Assembly (NCBI GenBank): GCA_900617105.1
Contig: UYFQ01000163.1
Location: 62,001-112,421 of the forward strand
Length of the DNA stretch: 50,421 nt
From: Hydrurus foetidus
Lineage: Eukaryota
Direction: 5' to 3'
Part shown: in pieces, positions 21,402 through 48,443 of the stretch
Layout of the letters: the number at the start of each line of letters is the position of its first letter
Numbering within the stretch: position 1 is the stretch's first letter
The notes under the pieces: model-generated
Seen by the model: only the letters and a program-made list of their open reading frames with translations
Databases searched by the model: none
What the model was told of the DNA's origin: nothing
Position numbers and translations under genes: made by a program

Positions 21402-21809
21402 ATGGAGCCGAAACCCATTATTGTTGTTACCTCGTCGAAGTCTGTTTCGAAGAGGCGTGCATTGAAAGCGATTGACTTGTTCTTAGAGTTGCATGAGGAG
21501 GAGAAAACCATTTCGACAGATGTTACAGTGGAACGATACCGCATATCTGCCATACCAGAGGATGTCATAATGAGTCTTGTGAAAGTTAAAACTTTTTTGA
21601 TCGAAGACGTAACTCAGTCTTCAAGTTCAGCGATGAAAATCGAAGCGCCTAAAGGCATTAAAAGTGTTGAGAAACTAGGAGGATCCCCAGTCATCTCAGG
21701 AACCAAAATCAAACGAGAGGACGAGGAGGCGCCAGTCACTAAGAAATCGAGGAAGACAGTTGCAAACGATGACCATACAATTCAGAAAAAGAAGAAGGCT
21801 CGATTATAG
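21402..21809 (+). CDS. Hypothetical small basic protein with Lys-rich C-terminus (possible nuclear/nucleolar)
   Basis: 135-aa ATG ORF with protein-like composition ending QKKKKARL; no recognised domain. Confidence 0.55.
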   Translation: MEPKPIIVVTSSKSVSKRRALKAIDLFLELHEEEKTISTDVTVERYRISAIPEDVIMSLVKVKTFLIEDVTQSSSSAMKIEAPKGIKSVEKLGGSPVISGTKIKREDEEAPVTKKSRKTVANDDHTIQKKKKARL

Positions 21810-22057
21810 ATCATCATCAGTCTAGCTGACGAGTTGAGATGATCAAAGATGTGTATTCACCATCGATTAGAGTTTCATCGACTCCTTCGCAGAAAAGCCA
21901 GAGCAATTATTGTTGTAGTTGTACATAACCGATTGTACATATATTTGTTGAAACTTTACAATCTAAGAATTACATTCTATATTCAAAAATAGAGGTCGTT
22001 GCCACGGAATCGCTGAAAATCATGTCATGGAAATCTATCGTGAATTCGTCAGAGGAA

Positions 22058-22765: not shown

Positions 22766-23536
22766 TAGACAAAGTCCACAATGTGTCACAAGACTGGTGA
22801 TTTTAATGAAATCAGAAATGAGCGCATTTCAATATTTCGTTCAATAAGAGCGATAGTCCTCGTCTAAATTAAGAAATATGACGATCAGGCTACACTTCAT
22901 ATCATCAACTTCTTATCACATGGTGAAATGGGATTAGGTGACCTCGTAAATTGCGTTTTCCCCTAGATTCACGGGATTAGGGTTACAGAAACCTTCCCCA
23001 GATCAAAAAATCTAGACACCCCCACCCCCCTGTCTAAATTCTGGGTCACATAATCTTAAAAAAACTTAAAACAGTGATTTTTACCGTCAGCTCGAAAAAA
23101 AACAGTGGTTAATCAAAGGGGTCAGCTTGGATCTAGGATTGTGAAAAAGTTCCCGTTTCGAGTTAATGCTGCATAAAAGTTCCGCAGATTTGTAGGTTCC
23201 GGGGTGAGTTTCGCATCTACGACGTCATCCATTCTATATCAGTGAATCGGATTAAAATTTATCATATTTTGTTGAACTCCTTTGTTTTCTAATCTAATTA
23301 CTAATTTCACATTGATCTGTGGATTCGATTATTGAATGGCAAATCCAATTCATCTGCATCTAATTAAATTTATCGGTGTCTGATTAAAAATATCTGAGAG
23401 TATGTAAATAGTGGTTATGTGGAATTACTTTTCTAGGGAACCCTACAAGATTGGTACATTACTATTGACAGTTTATACACATTTTGAGAAATAATTGTTC
23501 GGTAGTTCAGCATGCAATTTATAAGAGTGAGCTGCA

Positions 23537-26500
23537 TTATAACGCGGAAGATGGAGTTGAGTCGGAGTAACATTTTTCAAGTGCACTTTTTGAGGAGAGT
23601 ATAGAATCAACTTTCCGTCTTTAAAGGGGAAATAACTCGCGAGCATGTCGACCAGTTGCGATATTCATGTGTGGCTCACCACTACGTATCAGCCATTGGA
23701 AAACTACATGTACCTTGGATTCTTCTTCCTGTTGTTCTTGCAGACTGTTAGACAGAAGCAGTAGAGGAGTACAGCGAGGAACAGTGAAAAAGCTCCAACT
23801 ATAGTAAACACTATTATGGATAATTCTCTATTCAGGCCAGCAACGCCGCCTCTCTCCTTCACGAGAGGGATGTTCGCTGCCGTACTGTTCACAGGAGCAC
23901 CAGTAGGAGAGAAGGAAATATTTGAAGGTCTCAACGTCGGAGCAAAAGTAGGCTGCGATGATTTCACTGCCGTACTGTTCACAGTAGGAAGAGATGTAGG
24001 AGAGAAGGAAATATTTGAAGGTCTCAACGTCGGAGCAAAAGTAGGCTGCGATGATTTCACTGCCGTACTGTTCACAGTAGGAAGAGATGTAGGAGAGAAG
24101 GAAATATTAGAAGGTCTCAACGTCGGAGCAAAAGTAGGCTGCGATGATTTCACTGCCGTACCGTTCACAGGAGAGATAGTAGGCAACAAAGTCGGTTCAA
24201 TAATAGGAACCAGCGTAGGCCGCAAAGTATTCACTGGTGACAGAGGAGATGGCGCAAGCGTGGGCTCCGTAGGCGTCAGTGTCGGTTCAACAGTAGGACC
24301 CGACGGTGCTGTAGGCTGCGATGGTGATGGTGATGATGACGCTGATGGTGACGCTGGTGACAGAGGAGATGGCGCAAGCGTGGGCTCCGTAGGCGTCAGT
24401 GTCGGTTCAACAGTAGGACCCGACGGTGCTGTAGGCTGCGACGGTGATGGTGATGATGACGCTGATGGTGACGCTGGTGACAGAGGAGATGGCGCAAGCG
24501 TGGGCTCCGTAGGCGTCAGTGTCGGTTCAACAGTAGGACCCGACGGTGCTGTAGGCTGCGATGGTGATGGTGATGATGACGCTGGTGACAGAGGAGATGG
24601 CGCAAGCGTGGGCTCCGTAGGCGTCAGTGTCGGTTCAACAGTAGGACCCGACGGTGCTGTAGGCTGTGATGGTGATGGTGATGATGACGCTGATGGTGAC
24701 GCTGGTGACAGAGGAGATGGCGCAAGCGTGGGCTCCGTAGGCGTCAGTGTCGGTTCAACAGTAGGACCCGACGGTGCTGTAGGCTGCGACGGTGATGGTG
24801 ATGATGACGCTGATGGTGACGCTGGTGACAGAGGAGATGGCGCAAGCGTGGGCTCCGTAGGCGTCAGTGTCGGTTCAACAGTAGGACCCGACGGTGCTGT
24901 AGGCTGCGATGGTGATGGTGATGATGACGCTGGTGACAGAGGAGATGGCGCAAGCGTGGGCTCCGTAGGCGTCAGTGTCGGTTCAACAGTAGGACCCGAC
25001 GGTGCTGTAGGCTGCGATGGTGATGGTGATGATGACGCTGATGGTGACGCTGGTGACAGAGGAGATGGCGCAAGCGTGGGCTCCGTAGGCGTCAGTGTCG
25101 GTTCAACAGTAGGACCCGACGGTGCTGTAGGCTGCGATGGTGATGGTGATGATGACGCTGATGGTGACGCTGGTGACAGAGGAGATGGCGCAAGCGTGGG
25201 CTCCGTAGGCGTCAGTGTCGGTTCAACAGTAGGACCCGACGGTGCTGTAGGCTGCGATGGTGATGGTGATGGTGATGATGACGCTGATGGTGACGCTGGT
25301 GACAGAGGAGATGGCGCAAGCGTGGGCTCCGTAGGCGTCAGTGTCGGTTCAACAGTAGGACCCGACGGTGCTGTAGGCTGCGATGGTGATGGTGATGATG
25401 ACGCTGATGGTGACGCTGGTGACAGAGGAGATGGCGCAAGCGTGGGCTCCGTAGGCGTCAGTGTCGGTTCAACAGTAGGACCCGACGGTGCTGTAGGCTG
25501 CGATGGTGATGGTGATGATGGCGCTGATGGTGACGCTGGTGACAGAGGAGATGGCGCAAGCGTGGGCTCCGTAGGCGTCAGTGTCGGTTCAACAGTAGGA
25601 CCCGACGGTGCTGTAGGCTGCGATGGTGATGGTGATGATGACGCTGATGGTGACGCTGGTGACAGAGGAGATGGCGCAAGCGTGGGCTCCGTAGGCGTCA
25701 GTGTCGGTTCAACAGTAGGACCCGACGGTGCTGTAGGCTGCGATGGTGATGGTGATGATGACGCTGATGGTGACGCTGGTGACAGAGGAGATGGCGCAAG
25801 CGTGGGCTCCGTAGGCGTCAGTGTCGGTTCAACAGTAGGACCCGACGGTGCTGTAGGCTGTGATGGTGATGGTGATGATGACGCTAATGGTGACGCTGGT
25901 GACAGAGGAGATGGCGCAAGCGTGGGCTCCGTAGGCGTCAGTGTCGGTTCAACAGTAGGACCCGACGGTGCTGTAGGCTGCGATGGTGATGGTGATGATG
26001 ACGCTGGTGACAGAGGAGATGGCGCAAGCGTGGGCTCCGTAGGCGTCAGTGTCGGTTCAACAGTAGGACCCGACGGTGCTGTAGGCTGCGATGGTGATGG
26101 TGATGATGACGCTGATGGTGACGCTGGTGACAGAGGAGATGGCGCAAGCGTGGGCTCCGTAGGCGTCAGTGTCGGTTCAACAGTAGGACCCGACGGTGCT
26201 GTAGGCTGTGATGGTGATGGTGATGATGACGCTGATGGTGACGCTGGTGACAGAGGAGATGGCGCAAGCGTGGGCTCCGTAGGCGTCAGTGTCGGTTCAA
26301 CAGTCGGACCCGACGGTGCTGTAGGCTGCGATGGTGATGGTGATGATGACGCTGATGGTGACGCTGGTGACAGAGGAGATGGCGCAAGCGTGGGCTCCGT
26401 AGGCGTCAGTGTCGGTTCAACAGTAGGACCCGACGGTGCTGTAGGCTGCGATGGTGATGGTGATGATGACGCTGATGGTGACGCTGGTGACAGAGGAGAT

Positions 26501-29500
26501 GGCGCAAGCGTGGGCTCCGTAGGCGTCAGTGTCGGTTCAACAGTAGGACCCGACGGTGCTGTAGGCTGCGATGGTGATGGTGATGATGACGCTGGTGACA
26601 GAGGAGATGGCGCAAGCGTGGGCTCCGTAGGCGTCAGTGTCGGTTCAACAGTAGGACCCGACGGTGCTGTAGGCTGCGATGGTGATGGTGATGATGACGC
26701 TGATGGTGACGCTGGTGACAGAGGAGATGGCGCAAGCGTGGGCTCCGTAGGCGTCAGTGTCGGTTCAACAGTAGGACCCGACGGTGCTGTAGGCTGCGAT
26801 GGTGATGGTGATGATGACGCTGATGGTGACGCTGGTGACAGAGGAGATGGCGCAAGCGTGGGCTCCGTAGGCGTCAGTGTCGGTTCAACAGTAGGACCCG
26901 ACGGTGCTGTAGGCTGCGATGGTGATGGTGATGATGACGCTGGTGACAGAGGAGATGGCGCAAGCGTGGGCTCCGTAGGCGTCAGTGTCGGTTCAACAGT
27001 GGGACCCGACGGTGCTGTAGGCTGCGATGGTGATGGTGATGATGACGCTGATGGTGACGCTGGTGACAGAGGAGATGGCGCAAGCGTGGGCTCCGTAGGC
27101 GTCAGTGTCGGTTCAACAGTAGGACCCGACGGTGCTGTAGGCTGTGGTGATGGTGATGATGACGCTAATGGTGACGCTGGTGACAGAGGAGATGGCGCAA
27201 GCGTGGGCTCCGTAGGCGTCAGTGTCGGTTCAACAGTAGGACCCGACGGTGCTGTAGGCTGCGATGGTGATGGTGATGATGACGCTGATGGTGACGCTGG
27301 TGACAGAGGAGATGGCGCAAGCGTGGGCTCCGTAGGCGTCAGTGTCGGTTCAACAGTAGGACCCGACGGTGCTGTAGGCTGCGATGGTGATGGTGATGGT
27401 GATGATGACGCTGATGGTGACGCTGGTGACAGAGGAGATGGCGCAAGCGTGGGCTCCGTAGGCGTCAGTGTCGGTTCAACAGTGGGACCCGACGGTGCTG
27501 TAGGCTGCGATGGTGATGGTGATGATGACGCTGATGGTGACGCTGGTGACAGAGGAGATGGCGCAAGCGTGGGCTCCGTAGGCGTCAGTGTCGGTTCAAC
27601 AGTAGGACCCGACGGTGCTGTAGGCTGCGATGGTGATGGTGATGATGACGCTGATGGTGACGCTGGTGACAGAGGAGATGGCGCAAGCGTGGGCTCCGTA
27701 GGCGTCAGTGTCGGTTCAACAGTGGGACCCGACGGTGCTGTAGGCTGCGATGGTGATGGTGATGATGACGCTGATGGTGACGCTGGTGACAGAGGAGATG
27801 GCGCAAGCGTTGGCTCCGTAGGCGTCAGTGTCGGTTCAACAGTAGGACCCGACGGTGCTGTAGGCTGCGATGGTGATGGTGATGATGACGCTGGTGACAG
27901 AGGAGATGGCGCAAGCGTGGGCTCCGTAGGCGTCAGTGTCGGTTCAACAGTAGGACCCGACGGTGCTGTAGGCTGCGATGGTGATGGTGATGATGACGCT
28001 GATGGTGACGCTGGTGACAGAGGAGATGGCGCAAGCGTGGGCTCCGTAGGCGTCAGTGTCGGTTCAACAGTAGGACCCGACGGTGCTGTAGGCTGCGATG
28101 GTGATGGTGATGATGACGCTGATGGTGACGCTGGTGACAGAGGAGATGGCGCAAGCGTGGGCTCCGTAGGCGTCAGTGTCGGTTCAACAGTAGGACCCGA
28201 CGGTGCTGTAGGCTGCGATGGTGATGGTGATGATGACGCTGATGGTGACGCTGGTGACAGAGGAGATGGCGCAAGCGTGGGCTCCGTAGGCGTCAGTGTC
28301 GGTTCAACAGTAGGACCCGACGGTGCTGTAGGCTGCGATGGTGATGGTGATGATGACGCTGATGGTGACGCTGGTGACAGAGGAGATGGCGCAAGCGTGG
28401 GCTCCGTAGGCGTCAGTGTCGGTTCAACAGTAGGACCGACGGTGCTGTAGGCTGCGATGGTGATGGTGATGATGACGCTGATGGTGACGCTGGTGACAGA
28501 GGAGATGGCGCAAGCGTGGGCTCCGTAGGCGTCAGTGTCGGTTCAACAGTAGGACCAGACGGTGCTGTAGGCTGCGATGGTGATGGTGATGATGACGCTG
28601 ATGGTGACGCTGGTGACAGAGGAGATGGCGCAAGCGTGGGCTCCGTAGGCGTCAGTGTCGGTTCAACAGTAGGACCCGACGGTGCTGTAGGCTGCGATGG
28701 TGATGGTGATGATGACGCTGGTGACAGAGGAGATGGCGCAAGCGTGGGCTCCGTAGGCGTCAGTGTCGGTTCAACAGTAGGACCCGACGGTGCTGTAGGC
28801 TGCGATGGTGATGGTGATGATGACGCTGGTGACAGAGGAGATGGCGCAAGCGTGGGCTCCGTAGGCGTCAGTGTCGGTTCAACAGTAGGACCCGACGGTG
28901 TTGTAGGCTGCGATGGTGATGGTGATGATGACGCTGATGGTGACGCTGGTGACAGAGGAGATGGCGCAAGCGTGGGCTCCGTAGGCGTCAGTGTCGGTTC
29001 AACAGTAGGACCCGACGGTGCTGTAGGCTGCGATGGTGATGGTGATGATGACGCTGATGGTGACGCTGGTGACAGAGGAGATGGCGCAAGCGTGGGCTCC
29101 GTAGGCGTCAGTGTCGGTTCAACAGTAGGACCCGACGGTGCTGTAGGCTGCGATGGTGATGGTGATGGTGATGATGACGCTGATGGTGACGCTGGTGACA
29201 GAGGAGATGGCGCAAGCGTGGGCTCCGTAGGCGTCAGTGTCGGTTCAACAGTAGGACCCGACGGTGCTGTAGGCTGCGATGGTGATGGTGATGGTGATGA
29301 CGCTGATGGTGACGCTGGTGACAGAGGAGATGGCGCAAGCGGTGGCTCCGTAGGCGTCAGTGTGGTGTCAACAGTAGGACCGCACTGCTGTAGGCTGCGA
29401 TGGTGATGGTGATGATGACGCTGATGGTGACGCTGGTGACAGAGGAGATGGCGCAAGCGTGGGCTCCGTAGGCGTCAGTGTCGGTTCAACAGTAGGACCC

Positions 29501-32500
29501 GACGGTGCTGTAGGCTGCGATGGTGATGGTGATGATGACCCTGATGGTGACGCTGGTGACAGAGGAGATGGCGCAAGCGTGGGCTCCGTAGGCGTCAGTG
29601 TCGGTTCAGCAGTCGGACCCGACGGTGCTGTAGGCAGCGACGGTGATGAAGATAAAAAAGCTGATGGTGTCACAGTTGGCACCGCACTCGCACTAGGTGT
29701 CGATGACGGTGATAGTGTCACAGTTGGTACCGCACTCGCACTAGGTGTCGATGACGGTGATGGTGTCACAGTTGGTACCGCACTCGCACTAGGTGTCGAT
29801 GACGGTGATGGTGATGGTGTCACAGTTGGTACCGCACTCGCACTAGGTGTCGATGACGGTGATGGTGTCACAGTTGGTACCGCACTCGCACTAGGTGTCG
29901 ATGACGGTGATGGTGTCACAGTTGGTACCGCACTCGCACTAGGTGTCGATGACGGTGATGGTGATGGTGTCACAGTTGGTACCGCACCATCGCAGGTGTC
30001 GATGACGGTGATGGTGTCACAGTTGGTACCGCACTCGCACTAGGTGTCGATGACGGTGATGGTGTCACAGTTGGTACCGCACTCGCACTAGGTGTCGATG
30101 ACGGTGATGGTGTCACAGTTGGTACCGCACTCGCACTAGGTGTCGATGACGGTGATGGTGTCACAGTTGGTACCGCACTCGCACTAGGTGTCGATGACGG
30201 TGATGGTGTCACAGTTGGTACCGCACTCGCACTAGGTGTCGATGACGGTGATGGTGATGGTGTCACAGTTGGTACCGCACTCGCACTAGGTGTCGATGAC
30301 GGTGATGGTGTCACAGTTGGTACCGCACTCGCACTAGGTGTCGATGACGGTGATGGTGATGGTGTCACAGTTGGTACCGCACTCGCACTAGGTGTCGATG
30401 ACGGTGATGGTGTCACAGTTGGTACCGCACTCGCACTAGGTGTCGGTGATGGTGATGGTGATGGTGTCACAGTTGGTACCGCACTCGCACTAGGTGTCGA
30501 TGACGGTGATGGTGTCACAGTTGGTACCGCACTCGCACTAGGTGTCGATGACGGTGATGGTGTCACAGTTGGTACCGCACTCGCACTAGGTGTCGATGAC
30601 GGTGATGGTGATGGTGTCTCAGTTGGTACCGCACTCGCACTAGGTGTCGATGACGGTGATGGTGTCACAGTTGGTACCGCACTCGCACTAGGTGTCGATG
30701 ACGGTGATGGTGATGGTGTCACAGTTGGTACCGCACTCGCACTAGGTGTCGATGACGGTGATGGTGATGGTGTCACAGTTGGTACCGCACTCGCACTAGG
30801 TGTCGATGACGGTGATGGTGTCACAGTTGGTACCGCACTCGCACTAGGTGTCGATGACGGTGATGGTGTCACAGTTGGTACCGCACTCGCACTAGGTGTC
30901 GATGACGGTGATGGTGTCACAGTTGGTACCGCACTCGCACTAGGTGTCGATGACGGTGATGGTGTCACAGTTGGTACCGCACTCGCACTAGGTGTCGATG
31001 ACGGTGATGGTGTCACAGTTGGTACCGCACTCGCACTAGGTGTCGATGACGGTGATGGTGTCACAGTTGGTACCGCACTCGCACTAGGTGTCGATGACGG
31101 TGATGGTGTCACAGTTGGTACCGCACTCGCACTAGGTGTCGATGACGGTGATGGTGTCACAGTTGGTACCGCACTCGCACTAGGTGTCGATGACGGTGAT
31201 GGTGTCACAGTTGGTACCGCACTCGCACTAGGTGTCGATGACGGTGATGGTGTCACAGTTGGTACCGCACTCGCACTAGGTGTCGATGACGGTGATGATG
31301 ATGGTGTCACAGTTGGTACCGCACTCGCACTAGGTGTCGATGACGGTGATGGTGTCACAGTTGGTACCGCACTCGCACTAGGTGTCGATGACGGTGATGG
31401 TGTCACAGTTGGTACCGCACTCGCACTAGGTGTCGATGACGGTGATGGTGTCACAGTTGGTACCGCACTCGCACTAGGTGTCGATGACGGTGATGGTGTC
31501 ACAGTTGGTACCGCACTCGCACTAGGTGTCGATGACGGTGATGGTGTCACAGTTGGTACCGCACTCGCACTAGGTGTCGATGACGGTGATGGTGTCACAG
31601 TTGGTACCGCACTCGCACTAGGTGTCGATGACGGTGATGGTGTCACAGTTGGTACCGCACTCGCACTAGGTGTCGATGACGGTGATGGTGTCTCAGTTGG
31701 TACCGCACTCGCACTAGGTGTCGATGACGGTGATGGTGTCACAGTTGGTACCGCACTCGCACTAGGTGTCGATGACGGTGATGGTGATCACAGTTGGTAC
31801 CGCACTCGCACTAGGTGTCGATGACGGTGATGGTGTCACAGTTGGTACCGCACTCGCACTAGGTGTCGATGACGGTGATGGTGTCACAGTTGGTACCGCA
31901 CTCGCACTAGGTGTCGATGACGGTGATGGTGTCACAGTTGGTACCGCACTCGCACTAGGTGTCGATGACGGTGATGGTGTCACAGTTGGTACCGCACTCG
32001 CACTAGGTGTCGATGACGGTGATGGTGTCACAGTTGGTACCGCACTCGCACTAGGTGTCGATGACGGTGATGGTGTCACAGTTGGTACCGCACTCGCACT
32101 AGGTGTCGATGACGGTGATGGTGTCACAGTTGGTACCGCACTCGCACTAGGTGTCGATGACGGTGATGGTGTCACAGTTGGTACCGCACTCGCACTAGGT
32201 GTCGATGACGGTGATGGTGTCACAGTTGGTACCGCACTCGCACTAGGTGTCGATGACGGTGATGGTGACTCAGTTGGTACCGCACTCGCACTGGTGTCGA
32301 TGACGGTGATGGTGTCACAGTTGGTACCGCACTAGGTGTCGATGACGGTGATGGTGTCACAGTTGGTACCGCACTCGCACTAGGTGTCGATGACGGTGAT
32401 GGTGTCACAGTTGGTACCGCACTCGCACTAGGTGTCGATGACGGTGATGGTGTCACAGTTGGTACCGCACTCGCACTAGGTGTCGATGACGGTGATGGTG

Positions 32501-35500
32501 TCACAGTTGGTACCGCACTCGCACTAGGTGTCGATGACGGTGATGGTGTCACAGTTGGTACCGCACTCGCACTAGGTGTCGATGACGGTGATGGTGTCAC
32601 AGTTGGTACCGCACTCGCACTAGGTGTCGATGACGGTGATGGTGTCACAGTTGGTACCGCACTCGCACTAGGTGTCGATGACGGTGATGGTGTCACAGTT
32701 GGTACCGCACTCGCACTAGGTGTCGATGACGGTGATGGTGTCACAGTTGGTACCGCACTCGCACTAGGTGTCGATGACGGTGATGGTGTCACAGTTGGTA
32801 CCGCACTCGCACTAGGTGTCGATGACGGTGATGGTGTCACAGTTGGTACCGCACTCGCACTAGGTGTCGATGACGGTGATGGTGTCACAGTTGGTACCGC
32901 ACTCGCACTAGGTGTCGATGACGGTGATGGTGTCACAGTTGGTACCGCACTCGCACTAGGTGTCGATGACGGTGATGGTGTCACAGTTGGTACCGCACTC
33001 GCACTAGGTGTCGATGACGGTGATGGTGTCACAGTTGGTACCGCACTCGCACTAGGTGTCGATGACGGTGATGGTGTCACAGTTGGTACCGCACTCGCAC
33101 TAGGTGTCGATGACGGTGATGGTGTCACAGTTGGTACCGCACTCGCACTAGGTGTCGATGACGGTGATGGTGTCACAGTTGGTACCGCACTCGCACTAGG
33201 TGTCGATGACGGTGATGGTGTCACAGTTGGTACCGCACTCGCACTAGGTGTCGATGACGGTGATGGTGTCACAGTTGGTACCGCACTCGCACTAGGTGTC
33301 GATGACGGTGATGGTGTCACAGTTGGTACCGCACTCGCACTAGGTGTCGATGACGGTGATGGTGTCACAGTTGGTACCGCACTCGCACTAGGTGTCGATG
33401 ACGGTGATGGTGTCACAGTTGGTACCGCACTCGCACTAGGTGTCGATGACGGTGATGGTGTCACAGTTGGTACCGCACTCGCACTAGGTGTCGATGACGG
33501 TGATGGTGTCACAGTTGGTACCGCACTCGCACTAGGTGTCGATGACGGTGATGGTGTCACAGTTGGTACCGCACTCGCACTAGGTGTCGATGACGGTGAT
33601 GGTGTCACAGTTGGTACCGCACTCGCACTAGGTGTCGATGACGGTGATGGTGTCACAGTTGGTACCGCACTCGCACTAGGTGTCGATGACGGTGATGGTG
33701 TCACAGTTGGTACCGCACTCGCACTAGGTGTCGATGACGGTGATGGTGTCACAGTTGGTACCGCACTCGCACTAGGTGTCGATGACGGTGATGGTGTCAC
33801 AGTTGGTACCGCACTCGCACTAGGTGTCGATGACGGTGATGGTGTCACAGTTGGTACCGCACTCGCACTAGGTGTCGATGACGGTGATGGTGTCACAGTT
33901 GGTACCGCACTCGCACTAGGTGTCGATGACGGTGATGGTGTCACAGTTGGTACCGCACTCGCACTAGGTGTCGATGACGGTGATGGTGTCACAGTTGGTA
34001 CCGCACTCGCACTAGGTGTCGATGACGGTGATGGTGTCACAGTTGGTACCGCACTCGCACTAGGTGTCGATGACGGTGATGGTGTCACAGTTGGTACCGC
34101 ACTCGCACTAGGTGTCGATGACGGTGATGGTGTCACAGTTGGTACCGCACTCGCACTAGGTGTCGATGACGGTGATGGTGTCACAGTTGGTACCGCACTC
34201 GCACTAGGTGTCGATGACGGTGATGGTGTCACAGTTGGTACCGCACTCGCACTAGGTGTCGATGACGGTGATGGTGTCACAGTTGGTACCGCACTCGCAC
34301 TAGGTGTCGATGACGGTGATGGTGTCACAGTTGGTACCGCACTCGCACTAGGTGTCGATGACGGTGATGGTGTCACAGTTGGTACCGCACTCGCACTAGG
34401 TGTCGATGACGGTGATGGTGTCACAGTTGGTACCGCACTCGCACTAGGTGTCGATGACGGTGATGGTGTCACAGTTGGTACCGCACTCGCACTAGGTGTC
34501 GATGACGGTGATGGTGTCACAGTTGGTACCGCACTCGCACTAGGTGTCGATGACGGTGATGGTGTCACAGTTGGTACCGCACTCGCACTAGGTGTCGATG
34601 ACGGTGATGGTGTCACAGTTGGTACCGCACTCGCACTAGGTGTCGATGACGGTGATGGTGTCACAGTTGGTACCGCACTCGCACTAGGTGTCGATGACGG
34701 TGATGGTGTCACAGTTGGTACCGCACTCGCACTAGGTGTCGATGACGGTGATGGTGTCACAGTTGGTACCGCACTCGCACTAGGTGTCGATGACGGTGAT
34801 GGTGTCACAGTTGGTACCGCACTCGCACTAGGTGTCGATGACGGTGATGGTGTCACAGTTGGTACCGCACTCGCACTAGGTGTCGATGACGGTGATGGTG
34901 TCACAGTTGGTACCGCACTCGCACTAGGTGTCGATGACGGTGATGGTGTCACAGTTGGTACCGCACTCGCACTAGGTGTCGATGACGGTGATGGTGTCAC
35001 AGTTGGTACCGCACTCGCACTAGGTGTCGATGACGGTGATGGTGTCACAGTTGGTACCGCACTCGCACTAGGTGTCGATGACGGTGATGGTGTCACAGTT
35101 GGTACCGCACTCGCACTAGGTGTCGATGACGGTGATGGTGTCACAGTTGGTACCGCACTCGCACTAGGTGTCGATGACGGTGATGGTGTCACAGTTGGTA
35201 CCGCACTCGCACTAGGTGTCGATGACGGTGATGGTGTCACAGTTGGTACCGCACTCGCACTAGGTGTCGATGACGGTGATGGTGTCACAGTTGGTACCGC
35301 ACTCGCACTAGGTGTCGATGACGGTGATGGTGTCACAGTTGGTACCGCACTCGCACTAGGTGTCGATGACGGTGATGGTGTCACAGTTGGTACCGCACTC
35401 GCACTAGGTGTCGATGACGGTGATGGTGTCACAGTTGGTACCGCACTCGCACTAGGTGTCGATGACGGTGATGGTGTCACAGTTGGTACCGCACTCGCAC

Positions 35501-38500: not shown

Positions 38501-41500
38501 TCACAGTTGGTACCGCACTCGCACTAGGTGTCGATGACGGTGATGGTGTCACAGTTGGTACCGCACTCGCACTAGGTGTCGATGACGGTGATGGTGTCAC
38601 AGTTGGTACCGCACTCGCACTAGGTGTCGATGACGGTGATGGTGTCACAGTTGGTACCGCACTCGCACCAGGTGTCGATGACGGTGATGGTGTCACAGTT
38701 GGTACCGCACTCGCACTAGGTGTCGATGACGGTGATGGTGTCACAGTTGGTACCGCACTCGCACTAGGTGTCGATGACGGTGATGGTGTCACAGTTGGTA
38801 CCGCACTCGCACTAGGTGTCGATGACGGTGATGGTGTCACAGTTGGTACCGCACTCGCACCAGGTGTCGATGACGGTGATGGTGTCACAGTTGGTACCGC
38901 ACTCGCACTAGGTGTCGATGACGGTGATGGTGTCACAGTTGGTACCGCACTCGCACTAGGTGTCGATGACGGTGATGGTGTCACAGTTGGTACCGCACTC
39001 GCACTAGGTGTCGATGACGGTGATGGTGTCACAGTTGGTACCGCACTCGCACTAGGTGTCGATGACGGTGATGGTGTCACAGTTGGTACCGCACTCGCAC
39101 CAGGTGTCGATGACGGTGATGGTGTCACAGTTGGTACCAACTGTGCACTAGGTCATCGACACTAGTGCGATGCGGTGATGGTGTCACAGTTGGTACCGCA
39201 CTCGCACCAGGTGTCGATGACGGTGATGGTGTCACAGTTGGTACCGCACTCGCACTAGGTGTCGATGACGGTGATGGTGTCACAGTTGGTACCGCACTCG
39301 CACCAGGTCGATGACGATGGTGTCACAGTTGGTACCGCACTCGCACTAGGTGTCGATGACGGTGATGGTGTCACAGTTGGTACCGCACTCGCACTAGGTG
39401 TCGATGACGGTGATGGTGTCACAGTTGGTACCGCACTAGGTGTCGATGTAGAATCATTTGGTACCGCACTCGCACTAGGTGTCGATGACGGTGATGGTGT
39501 CACAGTTGGTACCGCACTCGCACTAGGTGTCGATGACGGTGATGGTGTCACAGTTGGTACCGCACTCGCACTAGGTGTCGATGACGGTGATGGTGTCACA
39601 GTTGGTACCGCACTCGCACTAGGTGTCGATGACGGTGATGGTGTCACAGTTGGTACCGCACTCGCACTAGGTGTCGATGACGGTGATGGTGTCACAGTTG
39701 GTACCGCACTCGCACTAGGTGTCGATGACGGTGATGGTGTCACAGTTGGTACCGCACTCGCACTAGGTGTCGATGACGGTGATGGTGTCACAGTTGGTAC
39801 CGCACTCGCACTAGGTGTCGATGACGGTGATGGTGTCACAGTTGGTACCGCACTCGCACTAGGTGTCGATGACGGTGATGGTGTCACAGTTGGTACCGCA
39901 CTCGCACTAGGTGTCGATGACGGTGATGGTGTCACAGTTGGTACCGCACTCGCACTAGGTGTCGATGACGGTGATGGTGTCACAGTTGGTACCGCACTCG
40001 CACTAGGTGTCGATGACGGTGATGGTGTCACAGTTGGTACCGCACTCGCACTAGGTGTCGATGACGGTGATGGTGTCACAGTTGGTACCGCACTCGCACT
40101 AGGTGTCGATGACGGTGATGGTGTCACAGTTGGTACCGCACTCGCACTAGGTGTCGATGACGGTGATGGTGTCACAGTTGGTACCGCACTCGCACTAGGT
40201 GTCGATGACGGTGATGGTGTCACAGTTGGTACCGCACTCGCACTAGGTGTCGATGACGGTGATGGTGTCACAGTTGGTACCGCACTCGCACTAGGTGTCG
40301 ATGACGGTGATGGTGTCACAGTTGGTACCGCACTCGCACCAGGTGTCGATGACGGTGATGGTGTCACAGTTGGTACCGCACTCGCACTAGGTGTCGATGA
40401 CGGTGATGGTGTCACAGTTGGTACCGCACTCGCACTAGGTGTCGATGACGGTGATGGTGTCACAGTTGGTACCGCACTCGCACTAGGTGTCGATGACGGT
40501 GATGGTGTCACAGTTGGTACCGCACTCGCACTAGGTGTCGATGACGGTGATGGTGTCACAGTTGGTACCGCACTCGCACTAGGTGTCGATGACGGTGATG
40601 GTGTCACAGTTGGTACCGCACTCGCACTAGGTGTCGATGACGGTGATGGTGTCACAGTTGGTACCGCACTCGCACTAGGTGTCGATGACGGTGATGGTGT
40701 CACAGTTGGTACCGCACTCGCACTAGGTGTCGATGACGGTGATGGTGTCACAGTTGGTACCGCACTCGCACCAGGTGTCGATGACGGTGATGGTGTCACA
40801 GTTGGTACCGCACTCGCACTAGGTGTCGATGACGGTGATGGTGTCACAGTTGGTACCGCACTCGCACTAGGTGTCGATGACGGTGATGGTGTCACAGTTG
40901 GTACCGCACTCGCACTAGGTGTCGATGACGGTGATGGTGTCACAGTTGGTACCGCACTCGCACTAGGTGTCGATGACGGTGATGGTGTCACAGTTGGTAC
41001 CGCACTCGCACTAGGTGTCGATGACGGTGATGGTGTCACAGTTGGTACCGCACTCGCACCAGGTGTCGATGACGGTGATGGTGTCTCAGTTGGTACCGCA
41101 CTCGCACTAGGTGTCGATGACGGTGATGGTGTCACAGTTGGTACCGCACTCGCACTAGGTGTCGATGACGGTGATGGTGTCACAGTTGGTACCGCACTCG
41201 CACTAGGTGTCGATGACGGTGATGGTGTCACAGTTGGTACCGCACTCGCACTAGGTGTCGATGACGGTGATGGTGTCACAGTTGGTACCGCACTCGCACT
41301 AGGTGTCGATGACGGTGATGGTGTCACAGTTGGTACCGCACTCGCACTAGGTGTCGATGACGGTGATGGTGTCACAGTTGGTACCGCACTCGCACTAGGT
41401 GTCGATGACGGTGATGGTGTCACAGTTGGTACCGCAGTAGGTGTCGATGGTGTCACAGTTGGTACCGCACTCGCACTAGGTGTCGATGACGGTGATGGTG

Positions 41501-44500
41501 TCACAGTTGGTACCGCACTCGCACTAGGTGTCGATGACGGTGATGGTGTCACAGTTGGTACCGCACTCGCACTAGGTGTCGATGACGGTGATGGTGTCAC
41601 AGTTGGTACCGCACTCGCACTAGGTGTCGATGACGGTGATGGTGTCACAGTTGGTACCGCACTCGCACTAGGTGTCGATGACGGTGATGGTGTCACAGTT
41701 GGTACCGCACTCGCACTAGGTGTCGATGGTGTCACAGTTGGTACCGCACTCGCACTAGGTGTCGATGACGGTGATGGTGTCACAGTTGGTACCGCACTCG
41801 CACTAGGTGTCGATGACGGTGATGGTGTCACAGTTGGTACCGCACTCGCACTAGGTGTCGATGACGGTGATGGTGTCACAGTTGGTACCGCACTCGCACT
41901 AGGTGTCGATGACGGTGATGGTGTCACAGTTGGTACCGCACTCGCACTAGGTGTCGATGACGGTGATGGTGTCACAGTTGGTACCGCACTCGCACTAGGT
42001 GTCGATGACGGTGATGGTGTCACAGTTGGTACCGCACTCGCACTAGGTGTCGATGACGGTGATGGTGTCACAGTTGGTACCGCACTCGCACTAGGTGTCG
42101 ATGACGGTGATGGTGTCACAGTTGGTACCGCACTCGCACTAGGTGTCGATGACGGTGATGGTGTCACAGTTGGTACCGCACTCGCACTAGGTGTCGATGA
42201 CGGTGATGGTGTCACAGTTGGTACCGCACTCGCACTAGGTGTCGATGACGGTGATGGTGTCTCAGTTGGTACCGCACTCGCACTAGGTGTCGATGACGGT
42301 GATGGTGTCTCAGTTGGTACCGCACTCGCACTAGGTGTCGATGACGGTGATGGTGTCACAGTTGGTACCGCACTCGCACTAGGTGTCGATGACGGTGATG
42401 GTGTCACAGTTGGTACCGCACTCGCACTAGGTGTCGATGACGGTGATGGTGTCACAGTTGGTACCGCACTCGCACTAGGTGTCGATGACGGTGATGGTGT
42501 CACAGTTGGTACCGCACTCGCACTAGGTGTCGATGACGGTGATGGTGTCACAGTTGGTACCGCACTCGCACTAGGTGTCGATGACGGTGATGGTGTCACA
42601 GTTGGTACCGCACTCGCACTAGGTGTCGATGACGGTGATGGTGTCACAGTTGGTACCGCACTCGCACTAGGTGTCGATGACGGTGATGGTGTCACAGTTG
42701 GTACCGCACTCGCACTAGGTGTCGATGACGGTGATGGTGTCACAGTTGGTACCGCACTCGCACTAGGTGTCGATGACGGTGATGGTGTCTCAGTTGGTAC
42801 CGCACTCGCACTAGGTGTCGATGACGGTGATGGTGTCACAGTTGGTACCGCACTCGCACTAGGTGTCGATGACGGTGATGGTGTCACAGTTGGTACCGCA
42901 CTCGCACTAGGTGTCGATGACGGTGATGGTGTCACAGTTGGTACCGCACTCGCACTAGGTGTCGATGACGGTGATGGTGTCACAGTTGGTACCGCACTCG
43001 CACTAGGTGTCGATGACGGTGATGGTGTCACAGTTGGTACCGCACTCGCACTAGGTGTCGATGACGGTGATGGTGTCACAGTTGGTACCGCACTCGCACT
43101 AGGTGTCGATGACGGTGATGGTGTCACAGTTGGTACCGCACTCGCACTAGGTGTCGATGACGGTGATGGTGTCACAGTTGGTACCGCACTCGCACTAGGT
43201 GTCGATGACGGTGATGGTGTCACAGTTGGTACCGCACTCGCACTAGGTGTCGATGACGGTGATGGTGTCACAGTTGGTACCGCACTCGCACTAGGTGTCG
43301 ATGACGGTGATGGTGTCACAGTTGGTACCGCACTCGCACTAGGTGTCGATGACGGTGATGGTGTCACAGTTGGTACCGCACTCGCACTAGGTGTCGATGA
43401 CGGTGATGGTGTCTCAGTTGGTACCGCACTCGCACTAGGTGTCGATGACGGTGATGGTGTCACAGTTGGTACCGCACTCGCACTAGGTGTCGATGACGGT
43501 GATGGTGTCACAGTTGGTACCGCACTCGCACTAGGTGTCGATGACGGTGATGGTGTCACAGTTGGTACCGCACTCGCACTAGGTGTCGATGACGGTGATG
43601 GTGTCACAGTTGGTACCGCACTCGCACTAGGTGTCGGTGATGGTGTCACAGTTGGTACCGCACTCGCACTAGGTGTCGATGACGGTGATGGTGTCACAGT
43701 TGGTACCGCACTCGCACTAGGTGTCGATGACGGTGATGGTGTCACAGTTGGTACCGCACTCGCACTAGGTGTCGATGACGGTGATGGTGTCACAGTTGGT
43801 ACCGCACTCGCACTAGGTGTCGATGACGGTGATGGTGTCACAGTTGGTACCGCACTCGCACTAGGTGTCGATGACGGTGATGGTGTCACAGTTGGTACCG
43901 CACTCGCACTAGGTGTCGATGACGGTGATGGTGTCACAGTTGGTACCGCACTCGCACTAGGTGTCGATGACGGTGATGGTGTCACAGTTGGTACCGCACT
44001 CGCACTAGGTGTCGATGACGGTGATGGTGTCACAGTTGGTACCGCACTCGCACTAGGTGTCGATGACGGTGATGGTGTCACAGTTGGTACCGCACTCGCA
44101 CTAGGTGTCGATGACGGTGATGGTGTCACAGTTGGTACCGCACTCGCACTAGGTGTCGATGACGGTGATGGTGTCACAGTTGGTACCGCACTAGGTGTCG
44201 ATGACGGTGATGGTGTCACAGTTGGTACCGCACTCGCACCAGGTGTCGATGACGGTGATGGTGTCACAGTTGGTACCGCACTCGCACTAGGTGTCGATGA
44301 CGGTGATGGTGTCACAGTTGGTACCGCACTCGCACTAGGTGTCGATGACGGTGATGGTGTCACAGTTGGTACCGCACTCGCACTAGGTGTCGATGACGGT
44401 GATGGTGTCACAGTTGGTACCGCACTCGCACTAGGTGTCGATGACGGTGATGGTGTCACAGTTGGTACCGCACTCGCACTAGGTGTCGATGACGGTGATG

Positions 44501-47500
44501 GTGTCACAGTTGGTACCGCACTCGCACCAGGTGTCGATGACGGTGATGGTGTCACAGTTGGTACCGCACTCGCACTAGGTGTCGATGACGGTGATGGTGT
44601 CACAGTTGGTACCGCACTCGCAATAGGTGTCGATGACGGTGATGGTGTCATGGTTGGTACCGCACTCGCACCAGGTGTCGATGACGGTGATGGTGTCACA
44701 GTTGGTACCGCACTCGCAATAGGTGTCGATGACGGTGATGGTGTCACAGTTGGTACCGCACTCGCACTAGGTGTCGATGACGGTGATGGTGTCACAGTTG
44801 GTACCGCACTAGGTTTCGATGGTATCACAGTTGGTACCGCACTCGCACTAGGTGTCGATGACGGTGATGGTGTCACAGTTGGTACCGCACTCGCACTAGG
44901 TGTCGATGACGGTGATGGTGTCACAGTTGGTACCGCACTCGCACCAGGTGTCGATGACGGTGATGGTGTCTCAGTTGGTACCGCACTCGCACTAGGTGTC
45001 GATGACGGTGATGGTGTCACAGTTGGTACCGCACTCGCACTAGGTGTCGATGACGGTGATGGTGTCACAGTTGGTACCGCACTCGCACCAGGTGTCGATG
45101 ACGGTGATGGTGTCACAGTTGGTACCGCACTCGCACTAGGTGTCGATGACGGTGATGGTGTCACAGTTGGTACCGCACTCGCACTAGGTGTCGATGACGG
45201 TGATGGTGTCTCAGTTGGTACCGCACTCGCACTAGGTGTCGATGACGGTGATGGTGTCACAGTTGGTACCGCACTCGCACTAGGTGTCGATGACGGTGAT
45301 GGTGTCACAGTTGGTACCGCACTCGCACTAGGTGTCGATGACGGTGATGGTGTCACAGTTGGTACCGCACTCGCACTAGGTGTCGATGACGGTGATGGTG
45401 TCACAGTTGGTACCGTTATAGGTTTTTCTGTTGTGGGCTTTTGATTGCTGGGTTGTTTGGTGGGTCCGGAGGGCTGAGGGGTGGGAGCAATGGAAGCTGG
45501 AAGATTTTATATAGTAAATAGTAGTAAGTTATTGATGTGAAGCCAATTACTTCACAGCTTTCAAAGTTGATATTCAATGATCTCACTTACGAGAATTATT
45601 GATTTCGGAGAAAAATCTGATGATTACTCGACCATCTCCGCCTGGATCTCCACCAATATTAGGATTCAGCGGATCGTTGTTACCGATTCCACCCATACCA
45701 ACAGGCAGCGAGTAACCGATCTACGGCAAGAAGACGGTTTACGTAATGAATGAATGAGCAATTCTTGTTGTATTTTATCAGCACATGTCATTTATATTTA
45801 CATAGAGATGACGTCGTTTTTCAGTCGAAGTTAGAGGTTTGAGGTGAAATTAACCTTGTCTCTGCCACCAGGTAAACCTAGGATAGGTATGCCTCCTGTG
45901 CCTGTTTCCTCATCGCTACTAGTATACCTCCCTCTTGTTCCTGGAGGAGAATAGAATAAGCAAATAATGGTGATAATATCTTGACATTTGGAGTGTTCAA
46001 AGTACACACTGCACTGTGCAATTTAGGGAGCGAAAGAATAATTCTTTTGCCTGCAATTATAATGTCGTACACATCCGAATACTTCTATTTTCTTCTAGGA
46101 AATGATCCTATTATAGTCTTGATAAAAATTTGCGATCAGGCGAAGGTTCGATGATTCGATTTGATGATTACCCGGGAGGGCCACGTAGGTGTTGGGGATG
46201 CAGCCTGGACCACTGCTGGACCCTCCACCTCCTCCTCCGTTAGTGCCTCTTGAGGCACTCCTATCTCACAAGAAACGCAGGAAGTGTATCCGATTAGAGG
46301 CATTATGTCGCGTATCTTGACTGATAACATTGTTCCTATCGAACTGCTAAGGGATACGTCACTCGTAACAGATTCGCATTTCTGCGCAGCAAATACGAAT
46401 TCGATCGGTAATACATACCCGCCACCTCCTCCGAAATACCCGCCCCCACCTCCGCCAGTCGTCTCTCTGTATTTGCCTACACAACCAGCTCCGCCTTTAC
46501 CGAAGAAGACATATATTTCGTGTCAGAAATTTGGCGTCGAAAATGGTAAAAGTAAAAGAGTAGCTAAGATGTTAAGAATGTTGATTTGTGAAATACCGTT
46601 GACTCCGTTTCCAGGGGAGCCTTCGCAGAGATCGTTGTCGGGAACCCCTTGAGCGCCAACAGTAGTATCTAGTAAAGGCGCATTCAAGATGAGGGGAATT
46701 AGGTGCTGATGGAGTTGAAAGATATTGAACTTGATTGTGATGTCAGGGTGTAGAGTTCATGGTTGCACGTCAATGGATGACGTGACACGACGCAGATAAC
46801 TCACTTGTTCCGGGCTTTCCGCTTCGGTTAGCTCCGATTTGAGTTACGGCTATTTGTTTTGCCCCACCCCCTGAATAGATAGAACGCATCGTTAGAAACC
46901 GTTTCATGATCAAAGCGAGAAACAATTTAGCAGTTTCAGTTAATTACCTCCACCACCGCAGATACTTAAACAGTCTGCGCCACCTCCTCCACCACCCGCC
47001 GCTATCACATCCTTCCCGGCGCGAGAAAATTGTATCGCGGATCGTCCGCCACCACCTGCCATTTGCAGATACTATAATCATCGACTTTTCTGCAATCTTG
47101 CTATATGCAATTTTTTTGTAAGACTCACCTCCAGCGACATTTCTTGGACCTTGTCCGCCATTACCACCGCCACCAAAACCTGACGAATTTGAGAAGGTGA
47201 TTATCTGTTCTAGCAACGCACAATTACCGATTGCCACAATATTGAAGTCATGCAACATCTGATCGGCACAAAAGTCCGTGAGGAGTCTATTAGGAAAATT
47301 TGCATATCTCACCGCCCCTCCCTCTGATATCAAGACCCTTCCCTCCACCAGCTACTAAATAGTAGAGGGTACTTTTCGGTACGACTGTTATGTTACATGA
47401 TGCAAAACCTCCTCCACCTCCAGGTGCAGTACGGAATTCTTCACCAATATTGTCTCCCGCGCTGTCGCCTCCTCCACCTCCACCCCATAGACTAACATGT

Positions 47501-47754
47501 ATCTTTGTTACTCCCTCTGGGATAAAAAAACTGTATGATCCTGGTACAGAGTATGAAAAAGCGGTGTTGCAAAACGTCGAAGCAGTTGCAATAGACCATG
47601 TTGCGTTAGGACAGCTGATGCATTGACTCCCATCCGATCCGTAAGATCCAATAGGACATGGTAAACACTTATTTTGTTCACAGTAATATCCTGCAGCAAC
47701 TGACTGACCGAAGCGACAAATGCTGTCGACGGCGGAGCATATTGGCGAAGCCAT
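23537..47754 (-). CDS. Giant (~7,600 aa) type-I membrane mucin-like protein: Cys-rich module + ALK/LTK-like glycine-rich head + Pro/Ser/Thr tandem-repeat stalk + TM + short tail (frame interrupted by probable assembly errors)
   Basis: Phase-consistent GT-AG exons 47754-47313, 47179-47129, 47055-46948, 46870-46805, 46668-46597, 46494-46419, 46260-46172, 45940-45855, 45720-45591, then giant exon 45496-23714 and a probable last exon 23618-23537. TM segment LSIIVFTIVGAFSLFLAVLLYCFCLTV is followed by KNNRKKNPR. No signal peptide found in the window. Confidence 0.8.
23876..24170 (-). repeat. 93-bp coding repeat, ~3 copies (PTFAPTLRPSNISFSPTSLPTVNSTAVKSSQ)
   Basis: Anchor CGTACYGTTCACAG at 23881, 23971, 24064 and 24157. 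Confidence 0.9.
24234..29648 (-). repeat. 120-bp coding minisatellite, ~45 copies (PTVEPTLTPTEPTLAPSPLSPASPSASSSPSPSQPTAPSG)
   Basis: Read directly; recurrent 108-bp (-12) and 126-bp (+6) length variants. Copy number estimated from length. Confidence 0.95.
29663..45415 (-). repeat. 48-bp coding minisatellite, ~330 copies (VPTVTPSPSSTPSASA)
   Basis: Plus-strand unit GGTGTCACAGTTGGTACCGCACTCGCACTAGGTGTCGATGACGGTGAT over ~15.75 kb, largely identical copies. Copy number estimated as length/48. Confidence 0.97.
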
Positions 47755-48076
47755 CGTCACTTATGGTATGTGATTGCAGTTCTCAGAATGAGATTCACAG
47801 TCACGGTATTGCGGTATACTGTATACAGTATGAAGTTGTTCCATAAGGGTGGCATCGTGAAGGAGCACTGGCAACTGGCAACTGGCACCGTGTGCGTGGG
47901 AGCGGAAGGGGGAAGGCCGTATCTGAGTCTCTTTTGAATTAAAATTATAATTTCAAACGGTGATCTGAAAATTTGATTTGATGTGTGAGAGGGTTGTGTT
48001 TTTTGTTTTTTTATCGTCATCATAATATAGATCTGGGATCCCCCCCGGTCATCCCTCCCTTCGGATCGTTACCCTA

Positions 48077-48148
48077 TGTTGGATATATCTGAGTTCATGA
48101 CACGAACACATTATGTGTACTTATGCATTCGTACAGCCGTACGGATTA

Positions 48149-48184
<36 letters not shown>

Positions 48185-48325
48185 CGCGTGCGAAGATGTA
48201 TGGACCCAAGCGGGACGCTGTACTTCAAGTGTAGTGTAGGTTTGAATTGTTGTTGCGTTGAAAGGGACTCGGGGACTTCAGCAGGGATGAAGCACAGTCA
48301 AATTAACAAGTGATTATTGACAACA
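48077..48325 (+). repeat. Candidate 5' LTR (TGTTG...CAACA, 249 bp) containing a (TG)16 microsatellite at 48151-48182
   Basis: 5-bp inverted termini just upstream of the gag ATG. The 3' LTR lies outside the window, so the boundaries are unverified; no clear PBS recognised. Confidence 0.5.
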
Positions 48326-48443
48326 AGCGTCTCATTTCACAAGCCTTGGTAATCGAACCTCCAGACCGAAGGTCCACGTTCCGAACTCGGGTGATCAGAA
48401 CCAAAAGGTTTTCCAACATAATTTGACTGGTACCGGCATTGAC

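What the first reader, a model, noticed from the sequence alone, without database searches (positions are those of the whole stretch)
23537..47754. A ~7,600-aa membrane-tethered filament: polyglycine head on a potentially micron-long Pro/Ser/Thr stalk
Seen: the scattered ORF fragments form one gene. Nine small exons splice in phase into a ~370-aa Cys-rich + glycine-rich head. This splices into one 21.8-kb exon (45496-23714) of ~7,200 almost purely P/S/T/A/V residues, ending in a TM helix, juxtamembrane Cys (YCFCLTVC) and a basic stop-transfer. No enzymatic intracellular domain. Inference: if extended like O-glycosylated mucin or PPII helix (roughly 0.2-0.3 nm/residue), the stalk would hold the head ~1.5-2 micrometres from the membrane. 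That suits a prey-capture, adhesion, mucilage/stalk or hair-like structure, or a virus decoy. I do not recognise this architecture as a described family, and automated annotation would probably mask it as satellite DNA.
Basis: partly seen in the sequence, partly recalled or inferred. Interest (0 to 1): 0.88.

Follow-up and report, generated by a model that had tools for sequence, protein, structure and literature searches.

The report
Giant algal stalk with phage-like tip
A freshwater golden alga has a transcribed 24-kb gene that would encode a roughly 7,600-residue membrane-anchored protein whose likely sugar-coated stalk, at most about two micrometres long, would hold out a glycine-rich tip predicted to fold like phage tail-fibre tips and the human ALK receptor, although no export signal was found at its start.

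Summary
The gene model is real: nine GT-AG exons (373 aa) join a 21,793-nt exon holding about 328 16-aa and 46 40-aa Pro/Ser/Thr repeats, a transmembrane helix and a short basic tail. RNA contigs splice the head to the stalk exon, and stranded poly(A) reads cover both arrays in sense. A neighbouring gene places the host with Hydrurales golden algae. The head is not new: it is an Eph/TNFR-type cysteine module plus a Gly_rich_2 domain, whose stand-in model matches cyanophage Pam3 fibre tips and the ALK glycine-rich domain. It belongs to an unnamed family (40 hits at E<=1e-10). Two problems remain: seven single-copy frameshifts in the arrays (probably consensus errors, untested) and no signal peptide, here or after the matching Met of most relatives. 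Best reading: a mucin-like surface glycofibril presenting a binding tip up to about 2.2 micrometres away; glycosylation, topology and ligand are inferred. Giant algal Pro/Ser/Thr proteins are known (diatom CaTrailin4, Chlamydomonas MST3, TLP-4 candidates), so this is a new variant. Earlier scan notes describe Thr/Pro stalks with an ALK-like tip in phages, on other DNA.

The parts
47313..47754 (-). Exon 1 (147 aa): start Met without signal peptide, Eph/TNFR-type module with 8 Cys (aa 1-65), first strands of the glycine-rich domain
   Evidence: Pfam Gly_rich_2 33.3 bits (cut-off 24.3), Ephrin_rec_like and TNFR_ELAPOR1 below cut-off; model pLDDT 84, 92-97 over aa 1-60; fold matches EphB2, class C GPCR, MST1, TNFR modules
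45591..47179 (-). Exons 2-9: rest of the glycine-rich (polyglycine) domain, ending in the closing strand GGDGRVIIRF
   Evidence: In-phase GT-AG model; exon 9 matches Gly_rich_2 profile positions 195-225 of 226, E 0.012; intron 8 spliced in an RNA contig
45497..45590 (-). Intron 9, joining head to the stalk exon
   Evidence: Spliced exactly in two RNA contigs of run X7, one of a variant allele; an unspliced contig also present
29662..45496 (-). Stalk array A: short linker, then about 328 copies of a 16-aa unit (VPTVTPSPSSTPSASA); 5 frame-breaking units as assembled
   Evidence: sense poly(A) reads and high-depth RNA contig
24234..29669 (-). Stalk array B: 46 copies of a 40-aa Pro/Ser/Thr unit; 2 frame-breaking units as assembled
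   Evidence: sense poly(A) reads and RNA contig
23860..24233 (-). Membrane-proximal region: 31-aa unit x3, seven N-x-S/T sequons
23704..23830 (-). Transmembrane helix, juxtamembrane cysteines, basic tail, stop
23378..23703 (-). 3' untranslated region (at least to 23378)
   Evidence: RNA contigs of X7 at depth 4-5
48076..50421 (+). LTR-retrotransposon-like element (gag zinc knuckle) about 320 bp upstream of the start codon, pointing away; may hide a further 5' exon beyond the window
   Evidence: zf-CCHC; very high depth and loose ends from about 48075; the X1 contig leaves the window sequence at 48073

Best explanation
This is a transcribed gene of a likely Hydrurales golden alga that would encode a mucin-like surface protein of about 7,600 residues, predicted to be anchored by its C-terminal helix, with a likely O-glycosylated Pro/Ser/Thr stalk that would hold a cysteine module and an ALK/phage-fibre-type glycine-rich binding tip up to about 2 micrometres from the cell. 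Shown: exon model, splicing of head to stalk exon, sense transcription of both arrays, domain families, composition. Inferred: the seven frameshifts are consensus errors in an unpolishable array; the head faces outward; prolines are hydroxylated and, with Ser/Thr, glycosylated so that the stalk stiffens into a glycofibril; the tip binds a surface or partner (rock biofilm matrix, neighbouring cells, bacteria) through variable loops as in Pam3 gp24. The export route is open: an unseen 5' signal exon or a non-classical route are about equally likely.
For: Splicing of introns 8 and 9 in X7 RNA contigs. Poly(A) reads on both arrays lie on one strand only (mean depth 9.0 and 18.4 versus 0 and 0 on array A; 12.2 and 17.5 versus 0 and 0 on array B), opposite to the reads of the plus-strand DEAD-box gene in the same runs, i.e. 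sense. In X7 the head (depth 3.6-8.6), arrays (contigs at 1,227 and 268) and 3' UTR (4-5) are covered while 18300-23374 is almost bare, so it is unlikely to be DNA, and the depths fit arrays kept in the RNA. 29 of 36 length-variant units keep the frame; all 4 recurrent length variants do; all 7 frame-breakers are single copies, 2 garbled; an independent DNA run shows no gap in the head exons. The cysteine module resembles only extracellular disulfide modules; C33, C45, C48, C62, C120 are invariant and a C-N-x-S/T sequon stands in 22 of 28 aligned rows; basic residues follow the helix. A stand-in Gly_rich_2 model ranks Pam3 fibre (Z 7.3, rmsd 3.7, 121 aligned), Bxb1 tail tip (Z 6.1) and ALK GRD (Z 4.9-5.2) in the top six.
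Against: No signal peptide at ATG 47754 (best 9-residue window is ICSAVDSIC; the segment folds as part of the cysteine module); 17 of 27 relatives have a Met within 10 residues before the first cysteine and no hydrophobic stretch after it; an X7 contig runs unspliced over 47579-47824; no good signal exon between the gene and the retroelement. No run gave a molecule spanning head to anchor. X22/X23 (one sample, 6% read) have no reads on the head and almost none on the helix or 3' UTR (low depth overall). Array reads could come from paralogues with the same unit. The frameshifts were not tested on reads. Array units contain 6-nt sub-repeats, so in-frame slippage is favoured even without selection. 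The stand-in model has mean pLDDT 49.9 and Z under 8. No protein, glycan, location or ligand data exist.
Confidence: 0.55

Rival explanations
1. Tail-anchored protein facing the cytosol: with no signal peptide, the C-terminal helix is inserted after translation and head and stalk act inside the cell as a long tether or spacer.
For: No signal peptide here or after the matching Met of most relatives; single helix about 10 residues from the C-terminus is the textbook tail-anchor layout (established knowledge).
Against: The cysteine module matches only extracellular disulfide folds; conserved sequon in 22 of 28 rows (hits were chosen by likeness to the query); seven sequons before the helix and basic residues after it; related cysteine + glycine-rich proteins such as P0182 begin with a hydrophobic stretch.
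Confidence: 0.12
2. Shed or secreted matrix fibril: the protein is exported as in the best reading but is cut near the membrane, or the frameshifted alleles make anchor-less forms, and it serves as bulk mucilage or trail material rather than a tethered probe.
Against: The helix, cysteines and basic tail are intact; no cleavage motif was identified; frameshifts look like errors.
Confidence: 0.2
3. Decaying or mis-sized allele: the frameshifts are real and the upstream retroelement removed the signal exon or promoter, so this copy makes no working protein; or the assembler inflated the arrays.
For: Seven frame-breaks; retroelement 320 bp upstream; long runs of identical units could be mis-assembled.
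Against: Head exons and tail are intact; near-identical exon-1 proteins from other samples (99%, 93%) and a 74% relative exist; RNA is spliced and sense; the relatives also lack a signal after Met, so its absence is not caused by the insertion; summed DNA depth in X1 is about 8 times higher on array A than on array B against 7.1 in the window (hand estimate, not a copy number).
Confidence: 0.13

Closest known systems
Diatom adhesive-trail proteins CaTrailin4 (894 kDa) and CaFAP1 of Craspedostauros australis (10.1101/2023.03.06.531300; passages read)
   Same: Stramenopile; very large; mostly PTS repeats (about 70% in CaTrailin4); folded domain of likely bacterial kinship; repeat region hard to assemble.
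   Different: Those have predicted signal peptides and CAA domains; this has a Gly_rich_2 head, a C-terminal helix and no signal peptide.
Chlamydomonas MST3/Mstax (PMC11015965; passages read)
   Same: One 8,572-aa chain, membrane-anchored at the C-terminal end, whose glycosylated PPII repeats span about 800 nm; its signal-bearing N-terminus was missed in one annotation version.
   Different: Poly-proline runs, PKD-like channel domain, C-type lectins and an MST1 sheath; none of these was found here.
TLP-4 and related orphan freshwater glycofibrils (PMC11725842, parts 1-2 of 5; 10.1101/2025.09.30.679562, parts 1-3 of 5)
   Same: Linear Pro-Ser/Thr core, 12.4 A per four residues, over 600 nm; candidates in ochrophytes up to 6,077 aa. 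Here 1,736 of 1,851 prolines are followed by Ser/Thr.
   Different: TLP-4 needs a strict tetrapeptide period; here proline spacing is 4, 2, 6 and 3, with at most 4 tetrapeptides in a row.
Cyanophage Pam3 tail fibre gp24, mycobacteriophage Bxb1 tail tip and ALK/LTK glycine-rich domain (PDB 7ypx, 9d93, 7ls0; PMC9608196, passages)
   Same: TNF-like sandwich with an inserted glycine-rich lattice; top matches of a stand-in Gly_rich_2 model. In Pam3 the variable distal loops are proposed to bind the host.
   Different: Here the domain is split over nine exons of an alga, follows a cysteine module and sits on a 7,200-aa stalk; no kinase, no trimer shaft; oligomer state untested.
Animal transmembrane mucins (recalled, not looked up)
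   Same: One huge tandem-repeat exon, PTS stalk, single helix, short tail.
   Different: No signal peptide found; Pfam scan of the last 200 residues found no SEA domain; unrelated head.

Membership tests
Gly_rich_2 (PF21722) / ALK-LTK-type glycine-rich domain | Profile match of the opening strands above the curated cut-off | tested here: met
   Exon 1 aa 71-140 to profile 3-70, 33.3 bits against 24.3; Atlas cluster of a relative carries PF21722 86%, PF12810 17%
Gly_rich_2 (PF21722) / ALK-LTK-type glycine-rich domain | Closing strand at the domain end | tested here: inconclusive
   Exon 9 matches profile 195-225 of 226 at E 0.012, below cut-off on its own
Gly_rich_2 (PF21722) / ALK-LTK-type glycine-rich domain | Whole spliced domain scores against the family | not tested
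   The planned profile test failed when the script machine was lost; only a local phmmer against four homologues was run (best E 5e-7 in a four-sequence search)
Gly_rich_2 (PF21722) / ALK-LTK-type glycine-rich domain | TNF-like sandwich with polyglycine-II lattice | tested here: inconclusive
   Stand-in model (bacterial P0004 domain, pLDDT 49.9) ranks Pam3 fibre, Bxb1 tip and ALK GRD first, Z 4.9-7.3; the alga's own exon-1 model meets Pam3 at Z 3.1 only
ALK/LTK receptor tyrosine kinases | Intracellular kinase domain | tested here: not met
   Stop about 10 residues after the helix
Type I transmembrane mucin-like glycoproteins | N-terminal signal peptide | tested here: not met
   None at ATG 47754 by hydropathy; no convincing upstream exon in the window; no dedicated predictor was available; an exon beyond the window is not excluded
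Type I transmembrane mucin-like glycoproteins | Long PTS tandem-repeat stalk | tested here: met
   72.7% P+S+T over 7,102 residues
Type I transmembrane mucin-like glycoproteins | Single C-terminal helix with basic cytoplasmic tail | tested here: met
Type I transmembrane mucin-like glycoproteins | Dense O-glycosylation | not testable with these tools
   Needs glycoproteomics
TLP-4-type glycofibril core | Long run of consecutive P[ST]xx or [ST]Pxx tetrapeptides | tested here: not met
   Longest runs 4 and 3
TLP-4-type glycofibril core | Dihydroxyproline and adjacent Ser/Thr glycans | not testable with these tools
   94% of prolines are followed by Ser/Thr, modification unknown
MST3/Mstax mastigoneme axis | Poly-proline repeat motif and PKD-like channel domain | tested here: not met
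   No proline runs in the repeat units, single helix only
Diatom trailins | CAA (pAdhesive_15) domain | tested here: not met
   Pfam scans of 6 of 9 head exons and the tail found none; the three unscanned exons are 17-24 aa

The most novel reading that the evidence does not exclude
A widespread, undescribed family of golden-algal surface fibrils that carry a phage-fibre-like receptor-binding tip on a micrometre-scale single-chain glycofibril and are exported without any cleavable signal peptide, i.e. a 7,600-residue N-terminal ectodomain crosses the membrane by an unknown route; such genes would also be a source of the orphan glycofibrils seen by cryo-EM in fresh water.
Probability: 0.2. Interest if true: 0.85.

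Novelty: new variant of a known kind. Interest (0 to 1): 0.6.

Why it matters
It gives a nearly full-length gene for a class of protein that short-read assembly and proteomics miss (12 Lys/Arg in 7,102 stalk residues). It puts the binding fold of phage fibre tips and of ALK on an algal surface, in a family known so far only as unnamed exon fragments. It offers a candidate for how stream golden algae hold on to rocks, each other or bacteria, and a testable source for freshwater glycofibrils whose makers are unknown. If the missing signal peptide is real, it points to an export route not covered by the usual rules.

Tried and rejected
Related loci for exon 1 were not found in JGI metagenome contigs or viral contigs; no tblastn match in GenBank phages; no solved structure by sequence; Foldseek gave no match at E<=0.001 for the exon-1 model. 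Pairwise comparison of single short exons with P0182 was uninformative. The long Gly/Asp/Val frames on the plus strand were rejected as the coding strand because RNA is minus-strand. Satellite DNA rejected for the same reason and because of the spliced junction into the array exon. Signal-exon candidates upstream were enumerated (288 splice options, those outside the retroelement); the more hydrophobic ones lie antisense in the retroelement or cross indels of another strain, and the best local one (ATG 47855, donor 47819, acceptor 47703) is weak and not seen in RNA. A bacterial promoter scan is not relevant. Ice binding was considered (cold streams, glycine-rich snow-flea antifreeze proteins) and dropped: no evidence. 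No complex prediction was run, as the whole head could not be submitted.

Full report
Observation. The window is eukaryotic, with small GT-AG introns. On the minus strand nine exons from ATG 47754 give an open 373-aa head and splice in phase into a 21,793-nt exon (45496-23704); the spliced length is 22,913 nt. The exon holds 328.5 copies of a 48-nt unit, 46 of a 120-nt unit and 3.2 of a 93-nt unit, then a hydrophobic helix, YCFCLTVC and a basic tail.

Frameshifts. Seven of the 371 repeat units parsed break the frame and the literal product stops at residue 2,453. Of 36 length-variant units 29 keep the frame; the 4 variant types seen more than once all keep it; the 7 frame-breakers are all single copies and two carry several errors in a few dozen bases. 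An independent short-read DNA run shows no gap in the head exons or in 18300-20519, so unique sequence looks clean while the array does not. This pattern is what unpolished long-read consensus gives (inference). Against: the units contain 6-nt sub-repeats that favour in-frame slippage anyway, and a 1-in-328 variant is below what the read tool lists, so the breaks were not tested. An earlier scan note says other pieces of this assembly are Brevundimonas-like, which suggests a mixed assembly (not checked).

Transcription. In the freshwater metatranscriptome X7, contigs skip intron 8 and intron 9 exactly, the latter joining head to stalk exon; introns 7 and 9 are also seen retained. X7 covers head (depth 3.6-8.6), both arrays (contigs at 1,227 and 268) and the 3' UTR (4-5) but almost nothing in 18300-23374. 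By hand, array-to-unique ratios are about 140-340 and 30-75, against 328 and 46 copies; the tool warns that such depths are no copy number. In two poly(A) runs of one sample (6% read) the array reads lie on one strand only, opposite to those of the plus-strand DEAD-box gene, hence sense. These runs have no reads on the head and almost none on helix or 3' UTR, but depth on the control gene is also about 1 or less. No molecule spans the gene, and paralogues with the same unit are not excluded.

Host. The neighbouring SMC2 has named relatives in chrysophytes and groups with Hydrurales sp. CCMP1899 at SH-aLRT 99 in a quick tree of 43 rows chosen from 120 hits. The best-matching environmental runs are labelled sediment, biofilm and fresh water. 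Hydrurus-type algae form mucilage colonies on stream stones and have cells a few micrometres wide (PMC13280783, passages).

Head. Exon 1 passes the Pfam cut-off for Gly_rich_2 and exon 9 matches the end of that profile weakly; residues 24-60 resemble Ephrin_rec_like and TNFR-like repeats. A model from 28 sequences (mean pLDDT 84) has a confident cysteine module over residues 1-65 whose nearest folds are all extracellular: EphB2 (Z 5.8, rmsd 1.7, 49 aligned), class C GPCRs, Chlamydomonas MST1, TNF receptors. The spliced glycine-rich domain could not be submitted, so a bacterial homologue stood in: its low-confidence model ranks Pam3 fibre, Bxb1 tail tip and four ALK structures above all else. 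The Pam3 paper itself notes the likeness to ALK and proposes the variable distal loops as the receptor site (PMC9608196, passages). By eye the order of glycine motifs in the head follows that of P0182, which passes the ALK_LTK_GRD cut-off. Atlas look-alikes of the stand-in are mostly viral.

Family. Exon 1 finds 493 proteins at E<=0.001 and 40 at E<=1e-10 among 1.84 billion representatives. I aligned 27 of the 40 that cover both modules: most end or lose likeness near intron 1, share five invariant cysteines and look like first exons called in unnamed metagenome contigs. An Atlas cluster of 127 such proteins has no recorded taxon. Whether the relatives carry stalks and anchors is unknown.

The signal problem. 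ATG 47754 is followed by no hydrophobic stretch. Met stands at the same place in three clusters under 60% identity, and 17 of 27 relatives have a Met within 10 residues before the first cysteine (my count; gene callers also write GTG and TTG starts as Met). Three relatives have hydrophobic-looking sequence further up that could be intron or signal. A possible acceptor at 47759 would give a cleavage-like T-M-A/S-P, but no good upstream exon lies before the retroelement at about 48076, and X7 is unspliced over 47579-47824. Yet cysteines, a sequon in 22 of 28 rows, seven sequons before the helix and the basic tail all point to head-out topology. I leave the route open and give the cytosol-facing reading 0.12.

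Mechanism. Most likely the stalk is hydroxylated and O-glycosylated, as for diatom trail proteins and TLP-4, and extends at up to 3.1 A per residue (PMC11725842; 10.1101/2023.11.25.568672, parts 1-2 of 4), giving at most about 2.2 micrometres, less if it coils. It would present the tip beyond the mucilage for adhesion or recognition. All of this is inference from composition and fold.

Comparison. It works like CaTrailin4, MST3 and transmembrane mucins but is a member of none: no CAA domain, no PKD domain, no strict tetrapeptide period, no signal peptide. Size is not a record: 8,572 aa for MST3 and 19,853 aa for an Amoebophrya TLP-12 candidate (10.1101/2025.09.30.679562). New is the pairing with a phage-fibre/ALK-type tip in an alga and the signal-less family; ten searches found no description, with the limits given above. 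PMC13243192 (passages) confirms Bxb1 and ALK as glycine-rich bundles. Earlier AI notes report the same stalk-plus-ALK-like-tip design in phages, not checked here.

Verdict. Real, transcribed, probably protein-coding; a new variant of giant algal mucin-like glycoproteins; function inferred. Interest 0.6.

Noticed in passing
window 48076-50421 (+): LTR-retrotransposon-like element with a 700-codon gag-type frame (CCHC knuckle), starting TGTTG about 320 bp upstream of the gene; the contig of run X1 leaves the window sequence at 48073, so the insertion may be polymorphic.
   Followed up: partly
window 5443-7125 (+): Glycosyltransferase family 61 gene with an N-terminal hydrophobic anchor, 16 kb from the stalk gene; no link shown.
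   Followed up: no
window 11948-16143 (-), 17177-20570 (+), 3871-4284 (+), 983-2332 (-): Ordinary neighbours: SMC2-like, DEAD-box helicase with GUCT domain, 2Fe-2S ferredoxin, CCDC66-like fragment.
   Followed up: partly
window 7752-10943 (-): Long Ser/Asp-rich frames (769 and 294 codons) with no Pfam match.
   Followed up: no
window 22770-23190: Short dispersed repeat (depth up to about 2,000 in X1 with several loose ends) just downstream of the gene; no inverted repeat found at 14 nt or more.
   Followed up: partly
window 22061-22828 (-): 256-codon frame without Pfam match, many strain differences in X1 and few reads on both strands.
   Followed up: no
P0146, P0144, P0149: Family members whose Pro/Thr-rich stretch begins right at the called Met, before the cysteine module, still without a signal peptide.
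   Followed up: no
P0165, P0182: Eukaryote-like proteins with tandem cysteine-repeat plus glycine-rich units, showing the two-module head is reused in other architectures.
   Followed up: partly
X7 contigs at window 24300-24358: Low-depth RNA contigs share part of the 40-aa unit but run into other sequence, suggesting further Pro/Ser/Thr repeat genes in this alga or a relative.
   Followed up: no
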